Source: Lama glama (lineage: Eukaryota). Taken from it: 64,000 bases of DNA. The notes beneath the pieces are model-generated. The model did not search any database and had not been told where the DNA came from. It saw only the letters and a list, made by a program, of their open reading frames with translations. The stretch is from the NCBI GenBank assembly GCA_028534125.1, contig CM052816.1, positions 68,202,001 to 68,266,000 on the forward strand, written 5' to 3'. Of the stretch, positions 20,800 through 48,299 are shown one piece after another. The position numbers and the translations under genes are program-made. The number at the start of each line of letters is the position of its first letter. The first letter of the stretch is position 1.

Positions 20800-22400
20800 A
20801 AAAAACGCAAACAATAGAAATAAAAGCAAGAATAAACAAATGGGACCTAATTAAACTTACAAGCTTCTGCACAGCAAAGGAAACCATAAGTAAAACAAAA
20901 TGACAACTTACGGAATGGGAGAAAATTTCTGCAAATTAAATCGACAAAGGCTTGATCTCCAGAATATATAAGCAGCTCATATGACTTAGTAAGAACAAAA
21001 CAAACAACCCAATCCAAAAATGGGCAGAAGACCTAAACAAGCAATTTTCCAAGGAAGAAATACAAATGATCAATAAGCACATGAAAAAATGCTCAATATC
21101 ACTAATTATCAGAGAAAGGGAAATCAAAACTATGATGAAGTATACACCTCACACCAGTCAGAATGGCCATCATTCAAAAGTCCACAAATGACAAATGCTG
21201 GAGAGGCTGTGGAGAAAAGGGAACTCTCTTACACTGCTGGTGGGAATGCAGTTTGGTGCAGCCACTGGAAAACAGTATGGAGATTCCTCAAAAGACTAGG
21301 AATAGACTTACCATATGACCCAGGAATCCTGCTCCTGGGCATATATCCAGAAGGAACCCTACTTCAAAAAGACATCTGCACCCCAATGTTCATAGCAGTA
21401 CTATTTACAATAGCCAAGACATGGAAACAGCCTAAATGTCCATCAACAGATGACTGGATAAAGAAGGTGTGGTATATTTATACAATGGAATACTACTCAG
21501 CCTTAAAAACCGANNNNNNNNNNNNNNNNNNNNNNNNNNNNNNNNNNNNNNNNNNNNNNNNNNNNNNNNNNNNNNNNNNNNNNNNNNNNNNNNNNNNNNN
21601 NNNNNNNNNNNNNNNNNNNNNNNNNNNNNNNNNNNNNNNNNNNNNNNNNNNNNNNNNNNNNNNNNNNNNNNNNNNNNNNNNNNNNNNNNNNNNNNNNNNN
21701 NNNNNNNNNNNNNNNNNNNNNNNNNNNNNNNNNNNNNNNNNNNNNNNNNNNNNNNNNNNNNNNNNNNNNNNNNNNNNNNNNNNNNNNNNNNNNNNNNNNN
21801 NNNNNNNNNNNNNNNNNNNNNNNNNNNNNNNNNNNNNNNNNNNNNNNNNNNNNNNNNNNNNNNNNNNNNNNNNNNNNNNNNNNNNNNNNNNNNNNNNNNN
21901 NNNNNNNNNNNNNNNNNNNNNNNNNNNNNNNNNNNNNNNNNNNNNNNNNNNNNNNNNNNNNNNNNNNNNNNNNNNNNNNNNNNNNNNNNNNNNNNNNNNN
22001 NNNNNNNNNNNNNGGAAGAGAAAGAAAAATACCATATGAGATCGCTCATATATGGAATCTACAAAAAAAAAAAAGAACATAAATACAAAACAGAAACAGA
22101 CTCATAGACACAGAATACAAACTTGTGGTTGCCAAGGGGGCGGGGGGTGGGAAGGGACAGGCTGGGATTTCAAAATGTAGAATAGATAAACAAGATTATA
22201 CTGTATAGCACAGGGAAATACATACAAGATCTTGTGGTATCTCACAGTGAAAAAAATGTGACAATGAATATATGTTTGTTCATGTACAACTGAAAAATTG
22301 TGCTCTACACTGGAATTTGACACAACATTGTAAAATGACTAGAACTCAGTAAAAAAAAAAGTTAGAAAAAATAAACAAATAAATAAAATGATAAAAAAAA
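20800..22400 (+). mobile_element. Young 5'-truncated L1 (ORF2 C-terminus and 3' UTR), contains the N gap
   Basis: Translation [28 protein letters not shown]...[42 protein letters not shown] is L1 ORF2p C-terminus. A-rich tail; flanking AAAAAGAAT at 20788-20796 and 22396-22404. Confidence 0.9.
21514..22013. other. Assembly gap, 500 N
   Basis: Run of N seen directly. Confidence 1.
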
Positions 22401-25930: not shown

Positions 25931-27290
25931 AAACTTACCACAGAGGTGACATTTGACCTTGACGTCCCTCCCTTCTCACTTCCAGCCCTCAGGCAATGCA
26001 CAGGTGAGTCATCTTTGAAAACAACACCTGCAGTAACAAATCTCCCATGGATAAATTAGGGAGAAATCACTCACTTTACAAAGCAGTTTGTTGTCATAAG
26101 TGAATCATTTTCAGTGACAAGCTTCTCCTGGGGCAGGTTAACTGGTTTAAAAGTCATTAATGACTTCCCAGAAATACTGGGACAGAGAAACCAAGCCAGA
26201 GGGTTAGGACCACTGCCAACTAAAGATCAATTAGAACTGTAGACTCTCTGGCATAATGTCTACACTAATAAAAAAACACAATTTTAGAAGCTTTTCTTGC
26301 ATGCATGTATTTTCCCTGAACCATAGCCATGTGTGGGAGAAATTGTTTAAATAGAACGCCTCGGCACAGCATCTCACAGAGGGTATCCCCATAAACAGAG
26401 CTTGTCTCCAAGCCCTTCCAGTGCTCCCCTGGGGTCACTTGACTCACAGTTCTGTTGTCACCTTTGGCAGTACTATTCGTTGGTCCAGTCATGCACAAAG
26501 GTATAATAAAGGTGGCTACCAAATTCAAGGGAGTTGCATACAGCTCTGTTTCTTCTGGAAACACCATGTCATGAAATCCCAGATGGTTCAGATGAAGGAC
26601 TTTTGGTGAAGGGACTACATACAGAGATGAGGCAGGGTTGAAAGGACAATATATTACCGGAGGGAGTCCAGTGAGGGCTGGTTCTGGGGAGGAGGATCCT
26701 CTTGGTGGAAGAGAAGCAACTACTGCTAGACCCTGCACTAGGGAAGGCAGGAAGAAATGCCCCCTCTTTCTCTCTTCTATCATTCTCCTGTCAGTGCCTC
26801 CCATGGACACTAAGGGGCAGGGGGCCTGGGTGATACAGCTAGCAAGGGTCAGCCCTCAGGGTACAGAGCAGGAGGAAAAAGAGAGTAATCTGAAGGACAG
26901 AGAATAAGGAGCACAATATCTCTTTCAAGGGTGGGTAAACTGAGTCATTGAAAGGGAAAGTAACATGTTTCAAATCAAAAAAGGGAAACCCAGAACCAAG
27001 ATGAGGGCTCCACTTCCCAGTCTGGTCTTACTGATTTCAAGTAGTCTGAATGACTGGAGAGAATCATTAAATCTCAGAGGACATCTAATTCCTCAGGCTC
27101 CTTCCCAATATATGGTGACCCTACAACATGGCCCACAGTGGTCAACTTTTCTTCAGAAGTGGTGAAGGTGTGTGTGATCAGGATGACTCAGTCTTCTGCC
27201 TGGATTCACCAGAGAGGTTTTCATGAATCACTTGTGTGGGTGATACTTTGGGTGTTGTTATTCTTTCAGTGAATTCTCTCCACACACTAA

Positions 27291-27849: not shown

Positions 27850-29110
27850 ATTCCTTTTGCTAAATACAACTAAAAATCCTGAACATTGTATATAAAATAA
27901 ACATGAGAACACTCCAGAAGGTGGAGAGAAAATGACAGACTAGGTAGGACCTTGGGACCCAAAAAATGACTAAGTGGTAAGTTTCCTGGATTTCCTTCTT
28001 GCCTTATAATCCCCAGACTTGGTGCCAAATAAGTCAATAATGTAGACATGCCAATAGACATAGACCAAAAAAGCCCCTAACAAAAGTCTGTTCTCTAGCC
28101 AAAGAACCAAGAAAGGGCCACATAGCAAGACAGAAAACTTTGAGACAATAATGAGTCTATTCCACCAAACATCACTTCAAAAAATGAAGGAAGGCAGGAA
28201 GGCAAAGAAAGAAAGAAAGGAAGGAAGAGGAGAGGGAGGGAGGGAGTAAGGAAGAAAAAGGGAGGGAGGGGAGGAGAGGGAAGGGAAGGGAAGGGAAGCA
28301 AAAGGAAGGGAAAGAAAAGAAAGAAAAGAAAAAAAAAACTATGACAACAGCCCCATGCATTCTAGCAAAGACCAAGTGGGGAGACTGGACCTCCACCTCC
28401 ACCTGGTAATAAGGTCTTCATCTCCCCATCCCCCTACCTGCAAGGGCAGTGTCACAGGAATCCTTTTTGAGAATTAGGACTTTCTCCACCACCCAGTAAT
28501 GAAGAATCTTCTCTTCTCCTTTGGAGCAGTGTCAAAGAAAGCAGCTAAAACAGAGGGTTTAAGTAAGATTAGGCACCTCATAACACAATACCCCAAATGT
28601 CCAAGTTTCAGTAGAAAAATCACTTATCATACCAAGAGACAGGAGGACCTCAAACTGAATGAAAAAAAAAGACAATTAATAGATCCCAACACTGAGAGGA
28701 AAAATGTTAGAATTATCTGGCAAAGATTTCAAGTAGCCATGAAAAAAAAAATGCTTCAATGAGCAATTATGAACATGCTTGAAACAAATGAAAAAATAGA
28801 AAGGCTCAGCAAAGAAATAACAGATATAAAGAAGAACCAAATGGAAAATGTTTAAACTGAAAAATACAATAATTACAATTAAACACTCAAAGGCTAAGCT
28901 CAGCAGCAGAATGAGGAGGCAGAGGAAAGGATCAGTAAACTTGAAAACAGAGCAATAGAAGTGAGAGAATCTGAACAACTGAAAGAAAGTAGGCTTGCAA
29001 AATGAAGATGAAGAAGGAGAAGACAGAGGAGAAGGAGGAGGAGCAGGACGAAGAGGAAGAAGAAGCAGCTGCCTCAGGGTGCTACAGGACTGCAACAAAG
29101 GATCTATCAT
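27850..29110 (+). mobile_element. Old L1 5' region/ORF1 remnant with internal purine-rich repeats
   Basis: ORF1-like 'ctcagcaaagaaataacagatataaagaagaaccaaatggaaa', 'gaggaaaggatcagtaaacttgaa'. GA-rich tract about 28185-28338. Confidence 0.7.
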
Positions 29111-29404
29111 TGGTTTCTGTGACCTAGTATTTCTGAGAAATCATTAATGATTTTTAACAGTTGACCTATCCCAAGAGGAGCTTGGGATTCCCTTATCATG
29201 ACAATAAAATGTTTTGTAAAGTGAGTGGTTGCTCCCTAATTTAGCCATGGTAGTTTTTTGTTTGTTTTTAAAGCAGGCTTACTTGTACATCTGTGTTGGG
29301 GCTAGAAGTTGGAAATGAGGAGAGTAAAAGGTTAAACACCACTTGTGTGATAAGTACAAAAGTCAGACTAATTGCACTCAATCCTGGCTTGTACTGACTG
29401 ACTA

Positions 29405-31691: not shown

Positions 31692-32592
31692 TTTTGCCAC
31701 TATTTAAGACATAGCAGTTCTTTGTTGATTTTACCCAGTACAGGTGCTTGAAAGAGTATTAAAAAGGAGAGATACGGAGAAAAACTGGGTTGCAGGCTGC
31801 AATCTTTTGGTAAGAACAGCAGTCCTAGAATTTATCCATTCTCAGGGATCTCTGAGGTCATAGTTTGCAGTTCACCTGGAAACAAATCACAACGTCTATG
31901 TGAATCTACAATCAAAAGGCATCTAAACAAGTCTCAGCTGGGCAAGGGACTGTGTCTGACGTTGTTTTCTTCACCTGGAGGAGTATGAAGTACCTGGGTT
32001 CTGCCTCACCAGCCTGGCTTGTTCTAACAGCCCTGCAAAGTCAATCAGAATGTGTGATTTCATCTGTGTTTTTATTCAGGAAGAAAACACATGAAAAACC
32101 AAATGCTTGGCCTATAGTGATTCTAAAAACAAAGAAGTATTTCAGTTAAGATGGCCCCTTTTAACAAGAATTTGTGCAACACAGGGTTAGTCTACCATCA
32201 CTGCCCTATATCACTTACCACTTCCAATAAAAGTGTGCTGCGCCTGTCTGCCTGGCTGAAGTGCTTTCCAAAGACACCTCCAGATTCTGCATTGTTCAAA
32301 CCAAGTCAGGATAAACCTACCTGTTACGTCCCAAATTGTGCTGATTCCCAAGGTAGTAATAAGCAAATTTTATCATCTGCACAAAATGTCCTAATCAACC
32401 AATTACTGAAAAATTATAAAAGATTTAATAGGGCCAGAAAAATACATAGTTTATATAAATGTAGCAACAATCATCATCTCTCTTCAGCTCAACAGCTGGG
32501 TTTGTGTTGAGGGTTGTTCATTTATCTGCAAAGAGCATAATAAATAAAAAGGCAAAGTCCGTTCATAAATTTCACAAATCAAACATTTTTAA

Positions 32593-32790
<198 letters not shown>

Positions 32791-33088
32791 TAAATGTGTC
32801 ATTGTGGGGCCCCACTTGCAGAAGAGTGTTCTTGGATTTATGCAGCTGGCCAGTAGAAACAGAACTTGAAACCTTTGCTTTGATCATCTCCAACATTTAT
32901 ATACCACTTAGAGTTGGTTTCATGCATTTAAGTCATTTTGATTTTCCTAACAATCCTCTAAGTTAGAGGTGATACCAGCATTAGAGAAATATTCTTTTCC
33001 ATCTTAACTGCATCATAATTTCCCCTGAGGCATTTCCAGACACACTTGGTACTCACTTCTAAGAATGCCCTCCATTAAGTGCCCTTCA

Positions 33089-34265
33089 TTGAAAGAAAGC
33101 AAGCTTCGTTTCACTCTATTCTGTATGCTAGTGGCAGTTAACTTTAGAAACCATCTGAGTGGGGATTAGCATTTGAAGCTGCAGTTTACCTCTCTGGGGT
33201 AGGACTAGTTCAGTGGAGGCTGAAGGATAAGCAAAGTGAGAACAATGAGAACTGGGAAGAGTGGTAGATAGGGAGTAGGGGAGAAAGACCAGACTCTTCA
33301 GGGACAACACCATTCATAGGATTCAACCCACAATCAGTGTTCAAATTAAAAATTGTATAGAGCCAGTCCTCAGTGCAGGAGATTTCAGTCTAGCATTTCC
33401 CAACTTTAGCTCAAGCTTGATACAGCCTTACTGAAAAACTTCAAGCCTGTCTCCTCTCAAATCTTCCCTGTAATCTTTCTGGGAGATCCCAGCGCTATCT
33501 TGAGTCCATGTCAAACAAGTCCTCCTTGGTGCCACGTGAGGGTCATCACTCTCTCTCCTCTCCCAACACAGCTCCTGGAAATCTTCATCAGAAACTACTG
33601 TTGCTGCACTGATGCAGCTTCTTGCATTTGCTGTCGCTGCCCATTGACAGTGGTGAATTAGCCCATGGTATCCTGAAGCTGCCCTGGCCAAATGGAACAC
33701 TCTCTTCCCCAAATACCCACCTACGTGCCACAATCTAGCGTAACTTGCAGTGAAGCATTGCCCAGTTCTCACAGAGATTTTTCTTTAGAAACTAGCCTTT
33801 GATTTCTTATTTGCATGCCCTCTTTCTCTAGGACTCACACATGAAACTGGGAAGAATTTTTCAAAGTGTTGGAGTGCTTGTTTCAAATGTGGGTTCCTGG
33901 ATTACACCATAGACCTTCTGAGTCAGACACTCTGGGAGCAGGACGGGGTTGTGGGTGGAGGGAAGTACCTGTATGTTAAACAAACTTCCCAGGCAATTTT
34001 TATGCTGTTCAAGTTTGAAAAACACTGGTCTGTGAACACTAGGTGAAGTCCAGTATCTCAGACATACCTGTAACTGCCCTCCCAGCCCCCCTCCCCTCTA
34101 GCACATGCCCTAACAACTGCTCTAGCTATGGAGATTTCTGGTGTCTGAGCTGAGTTGAAAAGAGGAAATTTGGATCAGGGGATGCAGGAAGGGATTAGAG
34201 ATGGTTCTAAAGTTAACTGCCACTAGCATACAGAATAGAGTGAAACGAAGCTAGCTTTCTTTCAA
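33089..34265. repeat. Inverted repeat pair: 33089-33156 and 34199-34265
   Basis: 68/67-nt arms differing by one substitution and one 1-nt indel; 1042-bp spacer. Confidence 0.95.
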
Positions 34266-36373
34266 AATTCTAAAATTCAAAATTTCAGATTTCTTGGGCT
34301 GGAGAGCCACTTAAGAACTGGGAAGAAGTCCTCCTCTAGTTCAGAGCGAACAGTGAGCCTAGCGAGGTGCCACCGTTGCAGAGAACTCTTTCTAGGAATG
34401 CATTCTAAAGAGCTGCATGGGGAAGTTTGCCTGCATGACAGCATGTGGCACTATCCTCTTAATGTTGACCTCACCTCAGTTTGGACCCCCAAGGCAGGGC
34501 TCTTCACTGGCTCTCCTGAGGCTCCCTGGGAAGGATGGGGGTAGGTGGTGTGCTATTGATGGCACTGTGAAGTCCACCACTCCCTCTGGCAGTGTTTGAA
34601 TTCAAGTATTAAAGGGCAGCTTGGCAAAGGGGGCACTTAGAAATTGGATCAGTCACAGCTTCAAACTCACTGTACAAATAAACTTACCATAGATGCATGA
34701 CCTTAGCCAAATTTCCTCACCTCTTGTGCCTCTTTCCTCATTTGTAAAATGTAGTAAAAATAATACCCTAAGTTTATCACAAGTGAAGGAGAAACATATG
34801 CAGAATCACCCAGCACATAGTAGGTAAAAGACGTATTTGTTAGTTCTGAATAGTGACCATGGGTTTCAGATGTATTAGGTGGCTTTCTGATTTCTTTTCT
34901 GAAGAAAAGAAAAGAAAAAAAAAAACCCATGCACGCATAGTTCCAGGAAATGTTGCAAAATGATAAAAATGTTTCAAACCCTCCCCCATCAGAAGATTTG
35001 TTTTTCAAAAACTAAACCTTAGGCAACTCTAAAATTTGGCAACTCTGAAATTTGTCCAGCATTCCTTTCTTTTGGGTCTTCTAGTCATACTTTTCCCTTT
35101 TAATCAGAGAAATTGATGACATAGACATTAGGAACTAAAACTAGATTTAATACATTGGTAAACTATGACTCAAGGTTGAAATTATTTGCTTCTACTTAAA
35201 ACTTAAATATTATTGGTCAGTTCTACAAAGCCATATTCAATCAAACCTATGAATTTTGATGTGCTTTTGTTGGAAAAAATTTTTTCTAGACTTTTCAGAA
35301 CCAAAATTTCTTTCTTATCATCTCTCTTTTTCTTCCATGCATTTAGTAACATTTTTATTTTTGCTTCCAATATTGTGAGGGAAAATCTTCAGTCATCTTT
35401 CTCTTAACATTGGGTAATCTTGAGACTTAACTATACAGGAATAGAAGAAGGCAGGACAAAAATAGAGAGTTATTGTCTTATTCTTCATAATAATAGCTTC
35501 ATTTACTTAAAAGCCTGTTTATAATTGGGTGAGTAACCCAAGTGATTCTGGATGAATTTAGGAGACATTCTCCTTGTCATGTGAGCCAAACTCAGTCATC
35601 AGCAAGTTGGGTCAGATGATGAACAGAATGGGAGAACTAGCCTGCAATTATATTTGCCCTTTGAAATAAGGAGAGACGTGGCCCAGCTGTGCTGACCAAG
35701 GAAGGGACAAGGATGAGATGTAGCAATATCAGGTCTCAATCTGGGTAATTGGTAGACAGCAGGGGGTTCTCAGGAAGTTACTTGAGGAATTCATAGGTGG
35801 GTAAAGCACAATAATGGGGAACCCTGAGGGGGTGCTGGTGATGCCCCCAGATTCAGCAGGAAAAAATCACCAGAGTAGCTGAGTCTCAGCCACGGGAGTA
35901 GGTGGCGCTCAGCATAGAATTCTAGGTGTCAGAAGAGGGACTGACTAGTTACTAGAAAGGGAACTTGGAAAAGAGGACAAAGGGCTGTTTATCAGCTATA
36001 GATAGACTGAGGCATCGAGTGGAGGCTGGGACTCAAGAATGACGCAGGAGCACAGTTTTGGAACTGGACCATGACATCCAGGTGAGACCATTGACAAGCA
36101 TGATTAGGAGCTAAGCCCACAGAATGAGAGGCTAGAGCTGAGTAATCACCCCATCACATGCCACATTTTGCTCTAGGAACTGAGTATAAAAAGTGGAGTA
36201 CACGCGAGTGGCCCTAGAAATGGGGAGGTGCAGGTAGAAGAAAGAGTCTAGGAATCAATCTGCATCTGACAGGGTGAAGTTCCTCCACAAAACTCAGGCA
36301 TCCATACCTCAAGACTTTCAGCCCTCTGTTGTGTAAATTCGAGTTATAGTCCTTAACCACTTTAGGTCAATAG

Positions 36374-36592
<219 letters not shown>

Positions 36593-45378: not shown

Positions 45379-48299
45379 GTAAGCCTGCCTCTCAAGGAAT
45401 GGGTGGCCATTGCACATGTGAGGGTGGGAAGAAGGGCTTTTCTGAACCACAAGGATAGGGAGGGAGCAGTTTTGTGCTCCCACGCTGAGAGGGAAGCCTG
45501 CATCTCCACTATTAATCCTCAGGCAGAAATTTATCCCACTGTGGGTGTGGGTAGCTTTTAATAGGGAAGGATTTATTGCATTAAGTACTTAAGCATTTAT
45601 CATACCACTGAAATTTTGTAATTTCCCTTTGGACATTGAGAAATAAATATTGCTCCTTCCTGTCTTCTTGGGAACCAGAAACTTCCATGGCTGCTGATGC
45701 TCCCGCTTTGAGTGAAAGATGACAGAGATGATAATTCTAGGCTCCCTGCTCCAGAAGCCACATTATTAAAGCCAATGATCACAACTGCTGTTTCCTTTAT
45801 GTTGCAAAGACAATCCTGCACGTTTCCAAGAAGACAGCACAGCTCTGTTGAACAAATTTCCTGAGGGAGAGTGGATCAGACCAGGCAGAGCAGCCCCAGA
45901 GTAGCTTAGGGTCTTGTGTCTATTTCACTGTTTTAAAAACCAGGTCTGATTTTCATTAGCCAGCCTGATTTCTTTAATAAGCTTCTTACAACTGATTTAA
46001 ATACCTGGTTTTTAATGGAATTTTGTATAAATGTGAACTTGGTTTGGCTATACTTCACTAAGAATATCCTAGGCCATTCTGATAGCATTGAAAATGCATA
46101 TGCCTCAAAATGCCAAATAACACTGTTTTCAAGGAGATCAGCTGGCCATAGACAACAAAGTGAGAGGAAGCCCCCTAACCAGAGCTGGGCCCCCTCCCCC
46201 ATCTTTCTCCTGGGCTGGGACCTTCATGTTTCTTGAGTCTCCTGATCAAAAGTCCTCCTTCCAACGAGCTTGGCATTAATGACCACACCAAAAAGTGCCT
46301 ACTTCACAGCCTGGGTCAGATGTTGGACACCTCCCTGACTCGGTGGTTACACGCTGCTTTCACTCCCCACACCTTCAGTGGTTTAAAGCAAAACCCCAGA
46401 TGAGAGAATACTGTACTGTTTTAAACTTCTGCTTTAAAAATGAGAACCAGAGATGAGAAAGCACACACTGATCACTCAGCCCATAGTGTGAAAGCAGGGA
46501 ACTTGGAGGCTTACAATTGATCCTGTCAGCTGATCATGAACTTCTAGACTTTGGGCAGCTTGCTAACCACTTCTTCCACCTCCAACTCCTGCCGTCACCC
46601 CTCAAACTGGAACTTACAAGAAAGGGGGCAAATTCAGTCATTCATACCCTGAAGCTGAATTCCCCTTACAGACATTCAACTCTGTCCACCCCTCAGCGGA
46701 ATGAACATCCCCCAGCAAAATGATTCCCTGTTTTTCCCCACCCTGGGAGGCCCCTGGTTGGTGGAGACAATGAAAGTAGACAAAAGCCTTTCTTACAGTG
46801 AGAACTATAATACTTTTTGGATAATATGTGGTAAATATTAGAAAAGTCTCTGGTTCCTTCTCATGCAAAGGAAATTCTTCCTGCTCTTACACCAGCATTC
46901 TGACCTGTTAGCTTTTTTGAGCAGGAGCCTCAAAAAGGACACTTCCTCCCAGTGTCGCAGCTCCCTATTCGCACTATGTCACATCACAGTATGTCTGAAA
47001 TCCACCCGAAGCCAACTATTAATGCTTGCCTGTGTTTTTCATTTATGTATATTGCTAGTGTGAGCCAATCCATATAAATTTGCAAAGGCTAGAAACTCTT
47101 TGCCATTGGGAAATAAGGACAGTTCTGAAATGGAAAGAACACAGCCCAGGCTTTCTTTTTCATTCATTACCTTGGTGGAGTTCCTGCATTTGGCTTCTCA
47201 GTGTTCTGCATAAACCATCACCTACTGTCTCCTCCCTCAATCACTTTTCCAATAAGTTCCAAGCACAATGTCAGCTCCATTACACTTGAGAGAGTAATGG
47301 TTAAAGCACACACACCCTACATCTGCTAAATAACAGGAAGCAAAAGACAGCAAAGGCAAAAGAAATCAGGGAAAAGGTAAGCCAGTGCTGGCAAAGCATT
47401 ATGGTTTCCTAATGACAAGGGGAAAGAACAAGACATAACCCCTATATAGTCTGAATTAAATTATTTTTCAAGAATAACTGAAGGACTCCCAAGCTTATCA
47501 CAATAACGGTTAAAGATTAAAGGATCAACTGATAGAAATCTAACTTCATTAAGAGACATATTCGATTGTAAACTGAAACTAAAAAATGTAGAGGGGGACA
47601 GAAGAAAATAAAAAATCTGTTTCTGAAGCCATTGTATTGCACATGTAAAACAAAACGTGGTATGTACCACTTTATATCAGAAAAGTGACTGTCACTTTAG
47701 ATACTGTCCTGATTTGAGCTCAGTGACTTAAAGTTTTTGTATTAGTTTTTACTTGTATAAGTAATACATGAACACATTTGCTTCTTAAACATTTAAATAT
47801 TACGAGTAATACTGGGAGTCTTTGATTACTTCCACCCTACCACCTTGCCCCCAGGTAATTGCTGTCTGATTTGTCTCTTTTCTAACCTCGTGTATACACT
47901 GTGTGTGTGTGTGTGTGTGTATACACATACACACAGATATAGACACTATGTATGTATAACATGAAAGGTATTTCATATTATATATGCTCTGCAGCTTTGT
48001 TTTTTCACTCAATAATATGTCTTAGAGCTCTATCCACGTTAATACCTATACATATGGCTCATTCCTTTTAATGGCTTCATAATGTTTCATACTATGAAAA
48101 TACCTCCTTTTATTTTCTGTTCTCCTATGAATGGATCTTTAGGTTGTCTCCAATTTTTCACCATTATAAACATTACTCTGAAGAGTGTACTTTTATAAAC
48201 CTCCTTGAGAATTTTATACAAACATTTCTTTAGAAGAAGCCTTGTTAGACAATGTACATTGTTAGAAAATGTACATTGAGGCAGAGGTGGGGAAGGCTG

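What the first reader, a model, noticed from the sequence alone, without database searches (positions are those of the whole stretch)
33089..34265. Near-perfect 68-bp inverted repeat enclosing 1 kb in ANKRD55 intron 4
Seen: ttgaaagaaagcaagcttcgtttcactctattctgtatgctagtggcagttaactttagaaaccatct (33089-33156) recurs as its reverse complement at 34199-34265 with one mismatch and one indel. The arms match no repeat I recognise, there is no outer TSD, and the right arm is followed by a stutter (ttcaaaatt ctaaaatt caaaatt). Inference: the near identity means a recent event or selection on pairing. It could be a 1-kb inversion with duplicated breakpoints, a templated repair insertion, or a maintained RNA duplex. 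In pre-mRNA it could form about 67 bp of dsRNA 340 nt after the weak exon-4 donor (GTACTG), long enough for ADAR editing or to affect splicing.
Basis: partly seen in the sequence, partly recalled or inferred. Interest (0 to 1): 0.7.

Follow-up and report, generated by a model that had tools for sequence, protein, structure and literature searches.

The report
Intronic inverted copy from replication slip
A 68-base piece of an intron in a mammalian ankyrin-repeat gene is present twice, back to back and about 1,000 bases apart; it is most likely the scar of one DNA-copying or repair slip, a well-known kind of mutation, and nothing found here shows that it does anything.

Summary
The repeat is real: 33089-33156 and 34199-34265 match in 66 of 68 columns (one substitution, one gap; E 5e-26), with a 1042-nt spacer and no third copy in the window. 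It does not look like a transposon (no outer duplication; the spacer holds an old multi-copy relic and no ORF over 118 aa) and matches no Rfam family.

New here: the arm edges share short words with the opposite locus. There is an 8-mer at both inner edges, two 6-mer inverted matches, and an exact 9-mer stutter after the right arm. These fit aborted re-priming in a template-switch or microhomology repair event, probably a few million years old (wide range). The right arm is the likelier new copy (about 65%). Whether the spacer was flipped is open (about 50%). These signals are weak and were found after looking (p about 0.0003-0.02, 24 + 16 tests).

No genome, outgroup or read pile-up was available. 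So copy number, ancestral state, polymorphism and editing are untested, and misassembly is unlikely but not excluded. The arms would pair in pre-mRNA (-111.6 kcal/mol) but enclose no known exon. Verdict: an ordinary member of a known mutation class.

The parts
32618..32748 (+). Upstream coding exon (ankyrin repeat; ANKRD55 exon 4 by recall), context only; donor GT at 32749
   Evidence: open frame; donor 5 of 9 consensus letters
33082..33087 (+). 6-mer one base outside the left arm; its reverse complement lies at 34188-34193 (second short duplicate if the right arm is native and the spacer flipped; otherwise chance)
   Evidence: 1396 of 200000 random locus pairs, 0.7%
33089..33156 (+). Left arm, 68 nt; likelier the original copy
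33157..33172 (+). Left inner flank: 16 nt tiled without a gap by three words (5, 8, 6 nt) found on the + strand of the right locus; candidate junction filler if the spacer is inverted
   Evidence: p 0.011, GC-matched 0.008; one of 24 tests
33162..33169 (+). 8-mer GGGATTAG, repeated directly at 34191-34198 where it abuts the right arm
   Evidence: 66 of 196598 random pairs for the strict position; 470 of 19650 for any 8-mer in 30x30 nt
33172..33177 (+). 6-mer whose reverse complement lies at 34276-34281 (microhomology or short duplicate if the left arm is native and the spacer flipped)
33157..34198 (.). Spacer, 1042 nt, 43-48% GC, longest overlapping ORF 118 aa; orientation relative to the ancestor unknown
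33869..34030 (+). Old interspersed-repeat relic in the spacer, with at least 5 other copies in the window (MER5A-like hAT relic by recall)
   Evidence: profile from window copies outside the test region, E 6.8e-6
34191..34198 (+). Second copy of the 8-mer, abutting the right arm
34199..34265 (-). Right arm, 67 nt, reverse complement of the left arm; likelier the new copy
34261..34288 (+). Stutter: exact 9-mer at 34261-34269 and 34276-34284; 34268-34274 also matches the arm's inner end
36482..36592 (+). Downstream coding exon (ankyrin repeat; exon 5 by recall; end approximate), context only

Best explanation
A single germline replication or repair accident by template switching (FoSTeS/MMBIR type, possibly with polymerase-theta-like re-priming) copied 68 nt backwards to a site about 1 kb away. 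The product has drifted neutrally since. Most likely order (inferred): the left arm is the original. The nascent strand stalled at its inner end, misprimed a few times on the opposite template and left a 15-16-nt patchwork filler. It then caught a 6-nt microhomology about 1 kb downstream and copied the spacer and the arm backwards. It returned to the normal template at a TTCAA microhomology with one slip, which is the stutter (four-point type 3-1-2-4, spacer inverted; about 0.35). Nearly as likely: only the arm was copied and the spacer is native (type 3-2-1-4, 'inverted duplication'; about 0.30). Less likely: the right arm is native with the spacer inverted (about 0.12) or native (about 0.04). 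Shown: the repeat, its near identity, the junction words. Inferred: which arm is new, the spacer's orientation, the enzyme, the age, neutrality.
For: Arms 97% identical against 64-89% for the window's other repeat pairs. At an assumed 2.2e-9 substitutions per site per year this gives 3-7 My, 95% range 0.1-25 My. Two copies only in the window. No outer duplication, no Rfam family, no long ORF, and an old relic in the spacer. Junction words: 8-mer at both inner edges; left inner 16 nt tiled from one donor strand, p 0.011; right outer flank 24 of 30 nt covered by 6-mers of the left locus, p 0.010; exact 9-mer stutter. Literature passages: 54% of 229 verified human inversion sites were inverted duplications, nearly all <1 kb and within 5 kb of the other copy (PMC4617611). 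Types 3-2-1-4/1-4-3-2 made 31% and 3-1-2-4/1-3-4-2 made 23% of 794 human-chimp events (PMC5453318). Multi-part templated insertions occur as human germline variants (PMC8421209).
Against: No outgroup or second assembly was seen, so the ancestral one-arm state is assumed. The junction statistics are post hoc: 24 tests (18 gave a tile of 0) and 16 (all 8 tests at k=7 gave p>0.08); several words are shared between flanks, so they are not independent. Neither outer flank is tiled from the arm edge. The 6-mer at 33082-33087 (0.7%) favours the opposite polarity. Rebuilt junctions joined no old repeat convincingly: only the native-spacer, left-native order gave a spanning hit, E 0.12-0.39, while 26 of 150 random joins reach E 0.25. 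The four-point model was built for short-range events and single rounds. Polymerase-theta tracts are rarely over 10 bp, with templates within 50 bp (PMC7165422), so the 68-nt arm is not a typical theta tract.
Confidence: 0.8

Rival explanations
1. Two steps: a short template switch first made a 68-bp hairpin with a 13-nt loop. A foreign 1021-nt piece (33170-34190) then landed in the loop with the 8-mer as target-site duplication, which would stabilise a fragile palindrome.
For: Removing the DNA between the two 8-mers leaves arm + 13 nt + arm. Perfect hairpins from template switches are common (PMC5453318). Palindrome centres are known to be disrupted by insertions (recalled).
Against: The piece has no terminal inverted repeats, no poly(A) end and no LTR-type ends (sequence), and no long ORF. 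It needs two rare events. It leaves the stutter and both 6-mers unexplained.
Confidence: 0.05
2. A maintained pre-mRNA duplex: the arms pair, are edited by ADAR or mask a cryptic acceptor in the left arm, and selection or gene conversion keeps them alike.
For: Arm duplex -111.6 kcal/mol; 61 of 68 left-arm bases pair with the right arm at P>0.9 in a fold of 33050-34300. Inverted Alu pairs are edited, most at 300-400 nt apart and less with distance (PMC526178). A crude scan puts one candidate acceptor (before 33132) inside the left arm.
Against: Any inverted copy folds this way by construction. No Rfam match (the two hits at E 0.4-0.5 lie outside the feature). No known exon is enclosed. The scan found 4 candidate acceptors in 3.6 kb, so one in a 68-nt arm has about a 7% chance. 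The donor is 340 nt away and not paired. Both differences between the arms break pairing and none is compensatory.
Confidence: 0.05
3. Assembly artefact: one arm was written twice by a scaffolded short-read assembly.
For: The window has a 500-N gap at 21514-22013. Public runs hold 0.89-0.93 of the words, and losing the right arm would cost only 78 of 2271 31-mers (3.4%), so the shares cannot exclude it.
Against: The arms differ by a substitution and an indel, are 1 kb apart, carry structured junctions, and lie 11 kb from the gap.
Confidence: 0.05
4. Terminal inverted repeats of a non-autonomous DNA transposon, or two chance copies of a young short repeat.
For: Arm-spacer-arm layout; genome-wide copy number could not be checked.
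Against: No outer target duplication (4 nt at best). The spacer carries an old relic shared with other window sites. Two copies in 64 kb. No exact 24-mer match in viral or metagenome contigs, which is weak evidence for a mammalian repeat.
Confidence: 0.04

Closest known systems
Four-point template-switch mutations, types 3-1-2-4 (inverted repeat with inverted spacer) and 3-2-1-4 (inverted repeat); Loytynoja & Goldman 2017, PMC5453318 (passages read)
   Same: A nearby fragment copied in reverse complement creates a new inverted repeat with or without flipping the spacer; no prior long repeat is needed.
   Different: The spacer here is 1042 nt, not tens of bases, and the junction fillers suggest extra rounds, which that model leaves out.
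'Inverted Dup' class of human structural variants; Sudmant et al. 2015, PMC4617611 (passages read)
   Same: Duplicated stretch under 1 kb, inverted, within 5 kb of the other copy, not retrotransposed; attributed to replication errors.
   Different: That class is defined against an allele without the copy and keeps the spacer in place; neither could be tested here.
Staggered-break inversions with inverted duplications; Ranz et al. 2007, PMC1885836 (passages read)
   Same: An inversion flanked by an inverted duplicate of unique sequence, often from one breakpoint only; their shortest duplicate was 46 bp.
   Different: Described for Drosophila interspecies inversions; inversion of this spacer is not shown.
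MMBIR templated insertions (PMC8421209) and polymerase-theta templated insertions (PMC7165422); passages read
   Same: Short templated pieces, several switches and microhomology at the junctions resemble the 5-9-nt words here.
Inverted Alu pairs edited by ADAR; PMC526178 (passages read)
   Same: Intronic inverted pair about 1 kb apart that can fold in pre-mRNA.
   Different: Arms of unique sequence and only 67 bp; editing not observed here.

Membership tests
Template-switch inverted duplication (four-point 3-2-1-4 / 3-1-2-4; 'Inverted Dup') | Fragment is a reverse-complement copy of nearby sequence, under 1 kb and within 5 kb | tested here: met
   68 nt, 1042-nt spacer, 97% identity
Template-switch inverted duplication (four-point 3-2-1-4 / 3-1-2-4; 'Inverted Dup') | Copied fragment is unique sequence and not retrotransposed (no poly(A), no target duplication) | tested here: inconclusive
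   Met within the window; genome-wide copy number not testable
Template-switch inverted duplication (four-point 3-2-1-4 / 3-1-2-4; 'Inverted Dup') | An ancestral or alternative allele has one arm only | not testable with these tools
   No genome held, no look-alike window, no collection hit, no read pile-up
Template-switch inverted duplication (four-point 3-2-1-4 / 3-1-2-4; 'Inverted Dup') | Microhomology or templated filler at the switch points | tested here: inconclusive
   8-mer, two 6-mers, 16-nt tile and 9-mer stutter at p 0.0003-0.02, post hoc
Short-range four-point event in the strict sense | Switch points tens of bases apart, one round only | tested here: not met
   Spacer 1042 nt; model scope. 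It works like this class but is not filed in it.
Staggered-break inversion | Spacer inverted relative to an outgroup | not testable with these tools
   Rebuilt junctions gave no significant old-repeat continuity for any order
Staggered-break inversion | Second inverted duplicate at the other breakpoint | tested here: inconclusive
   Two rival 6-mers, one for each polarity
Polymerase-theta templated insertion | Tract of 3-30 bp from a template within 50 bp of the break | tested here: not met
   The arm is 68 nt; only the 5-9-nt words fit
DNA transposon / MITE | Target-site duplication outside the terminal repeats | tested here: not met
   Longest outer direct match 4 nt
DNA transposon / MITE | Many genomic copies, or a match to a repeat library | not testable with these tools
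   Two copies in the window; no genome or Dfam available
Known structured RNA (Rfam, including pre-miRNA) | Match at a family's gathering score | tested here: not met
   32000-35500 gave 2 hits, E 0.42 and 0.47, about 21 bits against cut-offs of about 90, both outside the feature
ADAR-edited intronic duplex | A-to-G differences in RNA over the arms | not testable with these tools
   RNA runs holding part of the stretch exist, but no pile-up was obtained

The most novel reading that the evidence does not exclude
The accident made a working splicing element. The new arm pairs with the old one in pre-mRNA and hides, or lets ADAR destroy, a cryptic acceptor inside the left arm (candidate exon 33132-33235), protecting use of the weak upstream donor. 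The 1-kb spacer might also still flip between the arms in living animals.
Probability: 0.05. Interest if true: 0.55.

Novelty: new member of a known kind. Interest (0 to 1): 0.17.

Why it matters
As it stands it matters little. It is one more local inverted duplication, the commonest form among verified human inversion sites (PMC4617611). Its modest value is as a readable fossil: the junction words predict a specific order of re-priming steps and an inverted spacer, which one outgroup alignment would confirm or reject. If editing or an effect on splicing were shown, it would be a case of a regulatory RNA duplex born in one mutation inside a gene linked to autoimmune risk in people (abstract starts of PMC8801523 and PMC6759997; gene identity recalled).

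Tried and rejected
Genome-wide copy number: no genome is held. Look-alike windows in the scan: none by place or by sequence.

Public runs: of 24 rows, 14 hold 0.89-0.93 of the sampled words (5 organism labels, 6 studies), 2 RNA rows hold 0.28-0.30, 4 rows 0.08-0.11 and 4 rows 0.00. None was laid on the sequence. The shares show that the spacer's words are widespread (its loss would cost 46% of 31-mers) but say nothing on the second arm (3.4%). The small shares are no evidence.

An exact 24-mer of the arm found 0 loci in metagenome and 0 in viral contigs, so no outgroup came from there.

My recalled impression of a MIR remnant across the left arm was not borne out. Profiles built from the window's own SINE copies (16 and 15 members) hit only 34569-34846 in this intron. 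Old-repeat continuity across rebuilt junctions: only the left-native, native-spacer order gave a spanning hit, E 0.12-0.39 in 5 of 5 join variants, no better than 26 of 150 control joins. Purine content at the edges was looked at and not used.

Tandem Repeats Finder does not call the stutter. The bacterial promoter/terminator scan is irrelevant to a mammal. The Atlas gave only 'ankyrin repeat' for the downstream exon, so the gene name stays recalled.

The paper search for ANKRD55 + 'intron 4' listed 5 papers, none on this repeat by title or abstract start; this was my only search for the locus in print. PMC8755829 (passages) concerns 17-33-nt microinversions and does not fit the size. No supplements were read; those of PMC4617611 and PMC5453318 may hold size distributions that bear on the priors.

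Full report
Observation. The repeat is as described. Positions 33089-33156 match the reverse complement of 34199-34265 in 66 of 68 columns, with one substitution and one single-base gap (blastn E 5e-26). The spacer is 1042 nt. Among the 12 self-matches of the window at E<1e-3 with low-complexity filtering, it is the only one above 90% identity; the other 11 are 64-89%. A 24-mer from the arm, with 3 mismatches allowed, occurs twice in the window and never in 100 shuffles. The window has one 500-N gap, 11 kb upstream.

Setting. The arms lie in one intron, about 32749-36481, between two exons that code for ankyrin repeats on the + strand. Further ankyrin exons lie near 27.3 kb and 55.7 kb. I recall these peptides as human ANKRD55, but no call names the gene or numbers the intron, and I did not check the species. 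The left arm starts 340 nt after a donor with 5 of 9 consensus letters. The right arm ends about 2.2 kb before the next acceptor.

What it is not. There is no outer target duplication: the longest direct match between the outer 30-nt flanks is 4 nt. The 10 ORFs of 50 aa or more that overlap the feature are at most 118 aa. A profile built from repeat copies elsewhere in the window finds an old relic at 33869-34030 (E 6.8e-6; MER5A-like by recall), so the spacer is old genomic DNA and not a young element. Rfam gives nothing within the feature. The arm's 24-mer is absent from the viral and metagenome contigs, which says little about a mammalian repeat.

Junction anatomy, which is new here. (i) The 8-mer GGGATTAG follows the left arm after 5 nt (33162-33169) and directly precedes the right arm (34191-34198). 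Random locus pairs give this in 66 of 196598 cases at the strict position, and any 8-mer match between two 30-nt flanks in 470 of 19650. (ii) The first 16 nt inside the left arm are tiled without a gap by three words from the + strand of the right locus (p 0.011, GC-matched 0.008). They run into a 6-mer whose reverse complement lies at 34276-34281. (iii) After the right arm, a 9-mer repeats exactly at a distance of 15 nt, and 34268-34274 matches the arm's inner end. 49 of 2116 tiles (21 of 462 AT-rich tiles) have such a 9-mer repeat, and 10 of 1813 tiles reach the shift score. 24 of these 30 nt are covered by 6-mers of the left locus (p 0.010, GC-matched 0.015). (iv) A 6-mer one base outside the left arm has its reverse complement at 34188-34193 (1396 of 200000).

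How much weight these carry. They were found after looking. One search ran 24 tests, of which 18 gave a tile of zero. One search ran 16, of which all 8 at word length 7 gave p above 0.08. Several words are shared between flanks. They are hints.

Mechanism. Four one-event geometries give a single inverted repeat. With the left arm native and the spacer inverted (four-point type 3-1-2-4), the junctions fall at the left inner and right outer edges. That is where signals (ii) and (iii) sit, and the left filler words and the long tract would all be copied from one template strand, with the 8-mer's template next to the stall point. I give this about 0.35. With the left arm native and the spacer native (3-2-1-4), the junctions flank the right arm, which explains (i) and (iii); this class has the higher prior, and I give it about 0.30. 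With the right arm native and the spacer inverted (staggered break), (i) and (iv) are explained but the stutter is chance; about 0.12. With the right arm and the spacer native, about 0.04. These odds are my judgement, not a computed result. Rebuilding each ancestral order did not decide it: only the second order gave a junction-spanning match to other window DNA, at E 0.12-0.39, and 26 of 150 control joins reach E 0.25.

Age. One or two differences in 67 sites is 1.5-3.0%. At an assumed 2.2e-9 per site per year this is 3-7 My, with a 95% range of 0.1-25 My. Gene conversion would make the true age greater.

Independent data. No genome is held and the scan has no look-alike window. Of 24 listed public runs, 14 (5 organism labels, 6 studies) hold 0.89-0.93 of the sampled words. 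Loss of the spacer would cost 1051 of 2271 31-mers, but loss of the right arm only 78. So the spacer's words are widespread, while the second arm is not thereby confirmed. No read pile-up was obtained. Presence of both arms in other animals, spacer orientation and editing all remain open.

Function. The arms would pair in pre-mRNA: duplex -111.6 kcal/mol, and 61 of 68 left-arm bases pair with the right arm at P>0.9. That follows from the duplication itself. Low-level ADAR editing is plausible, since inverted Alu pairs are edited most at 300-400 nt apart and less with distance (PMC526178, passages), but it would not by itself show function. No known exon is enclosed. A crude scan of the intron finds 6 candidate exons on 4 acceptors; two lie within the feature, one with its acceptor inside the left arm. 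That is within chance (about 7%) but gives the one concrete test of the functional reading.

Comparison with what is known. In PMC4617611 (passages), 54% of 229 verified human inversion sites were inverted duplications, nearly all under 1 kb and within 5 kb of the other copy. In PMC5453318 (passages), 31% of 794 human-chimp template switches make an inverted repeat and 23% make one with an inverted spacer; that model is limited to short range and one round. PMC1885836 (passages) finds inverted duplications at 17 of 29 Drosophila inversions, often from one breakpoint only, the shortest 46 bp. PMC8421209 (passages) describes multi-part templated insertions as germline variants. PMC7165422 (passages) limits polymerase-theta tracts to short lengths and templates within 50 bp, which fits the fillers but not the arm. 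Earlier notes of this scan describe similar local inverted duplications in mammals; they are unchecked and I use them only as a sign that the class recurs. One search for this locus in print listed 5 papers, none on it by title or abstract start.

Verdict. Real feature, ordinary class, probably neutral. The right arm is the likelier new copy, and the spacer's orientation is undecided. Interest 0.17.

Noticed in passing
window 34247-34256: The single substitution between the arms makes a perfect 10-nt palindrome in the right arm where the left arm has a quasi-palindrome (pair I9). It could be a small quasi-palindrome correction or chance.
   Followed up: no
window 34881-34927: Low-complexity hairpin of a T-rich and an A-rich tract, 20 nt at 80%; it gave the two sub-threshold miRNA hits in Rfam. 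Probably chance.
   Followed up: partly
window 25933-26194 and 29110-29355: Inverted pair of about 267 nt at 72% identity, 2.9 kb apart, on either side of the ankyrin exon near 27.3 kb. Probably two copies of an old repeat; a pair around an exon is the layout that can favour skipping or circular RNA.
   Followed up: no
window 21514-22013: 500-N scaffold gap between LINE-like fragments; 11216-11431 matches 22159-22375 at 89%.
   Followed up: no
window 34569-34846: Near-full-length old SINE (MIR-like by recall) 300 nt right of the right arm; about 15 further copies in the window.
   Followed up: partly
window 34100-34340 and 45562-45702: Weak similarity (E 0.12-0.39) when the right arm is left out. 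If both belong to one old repeat family, it would show that the right arm was inserted into continuous DNA; chance level here.
   Followed up: partly
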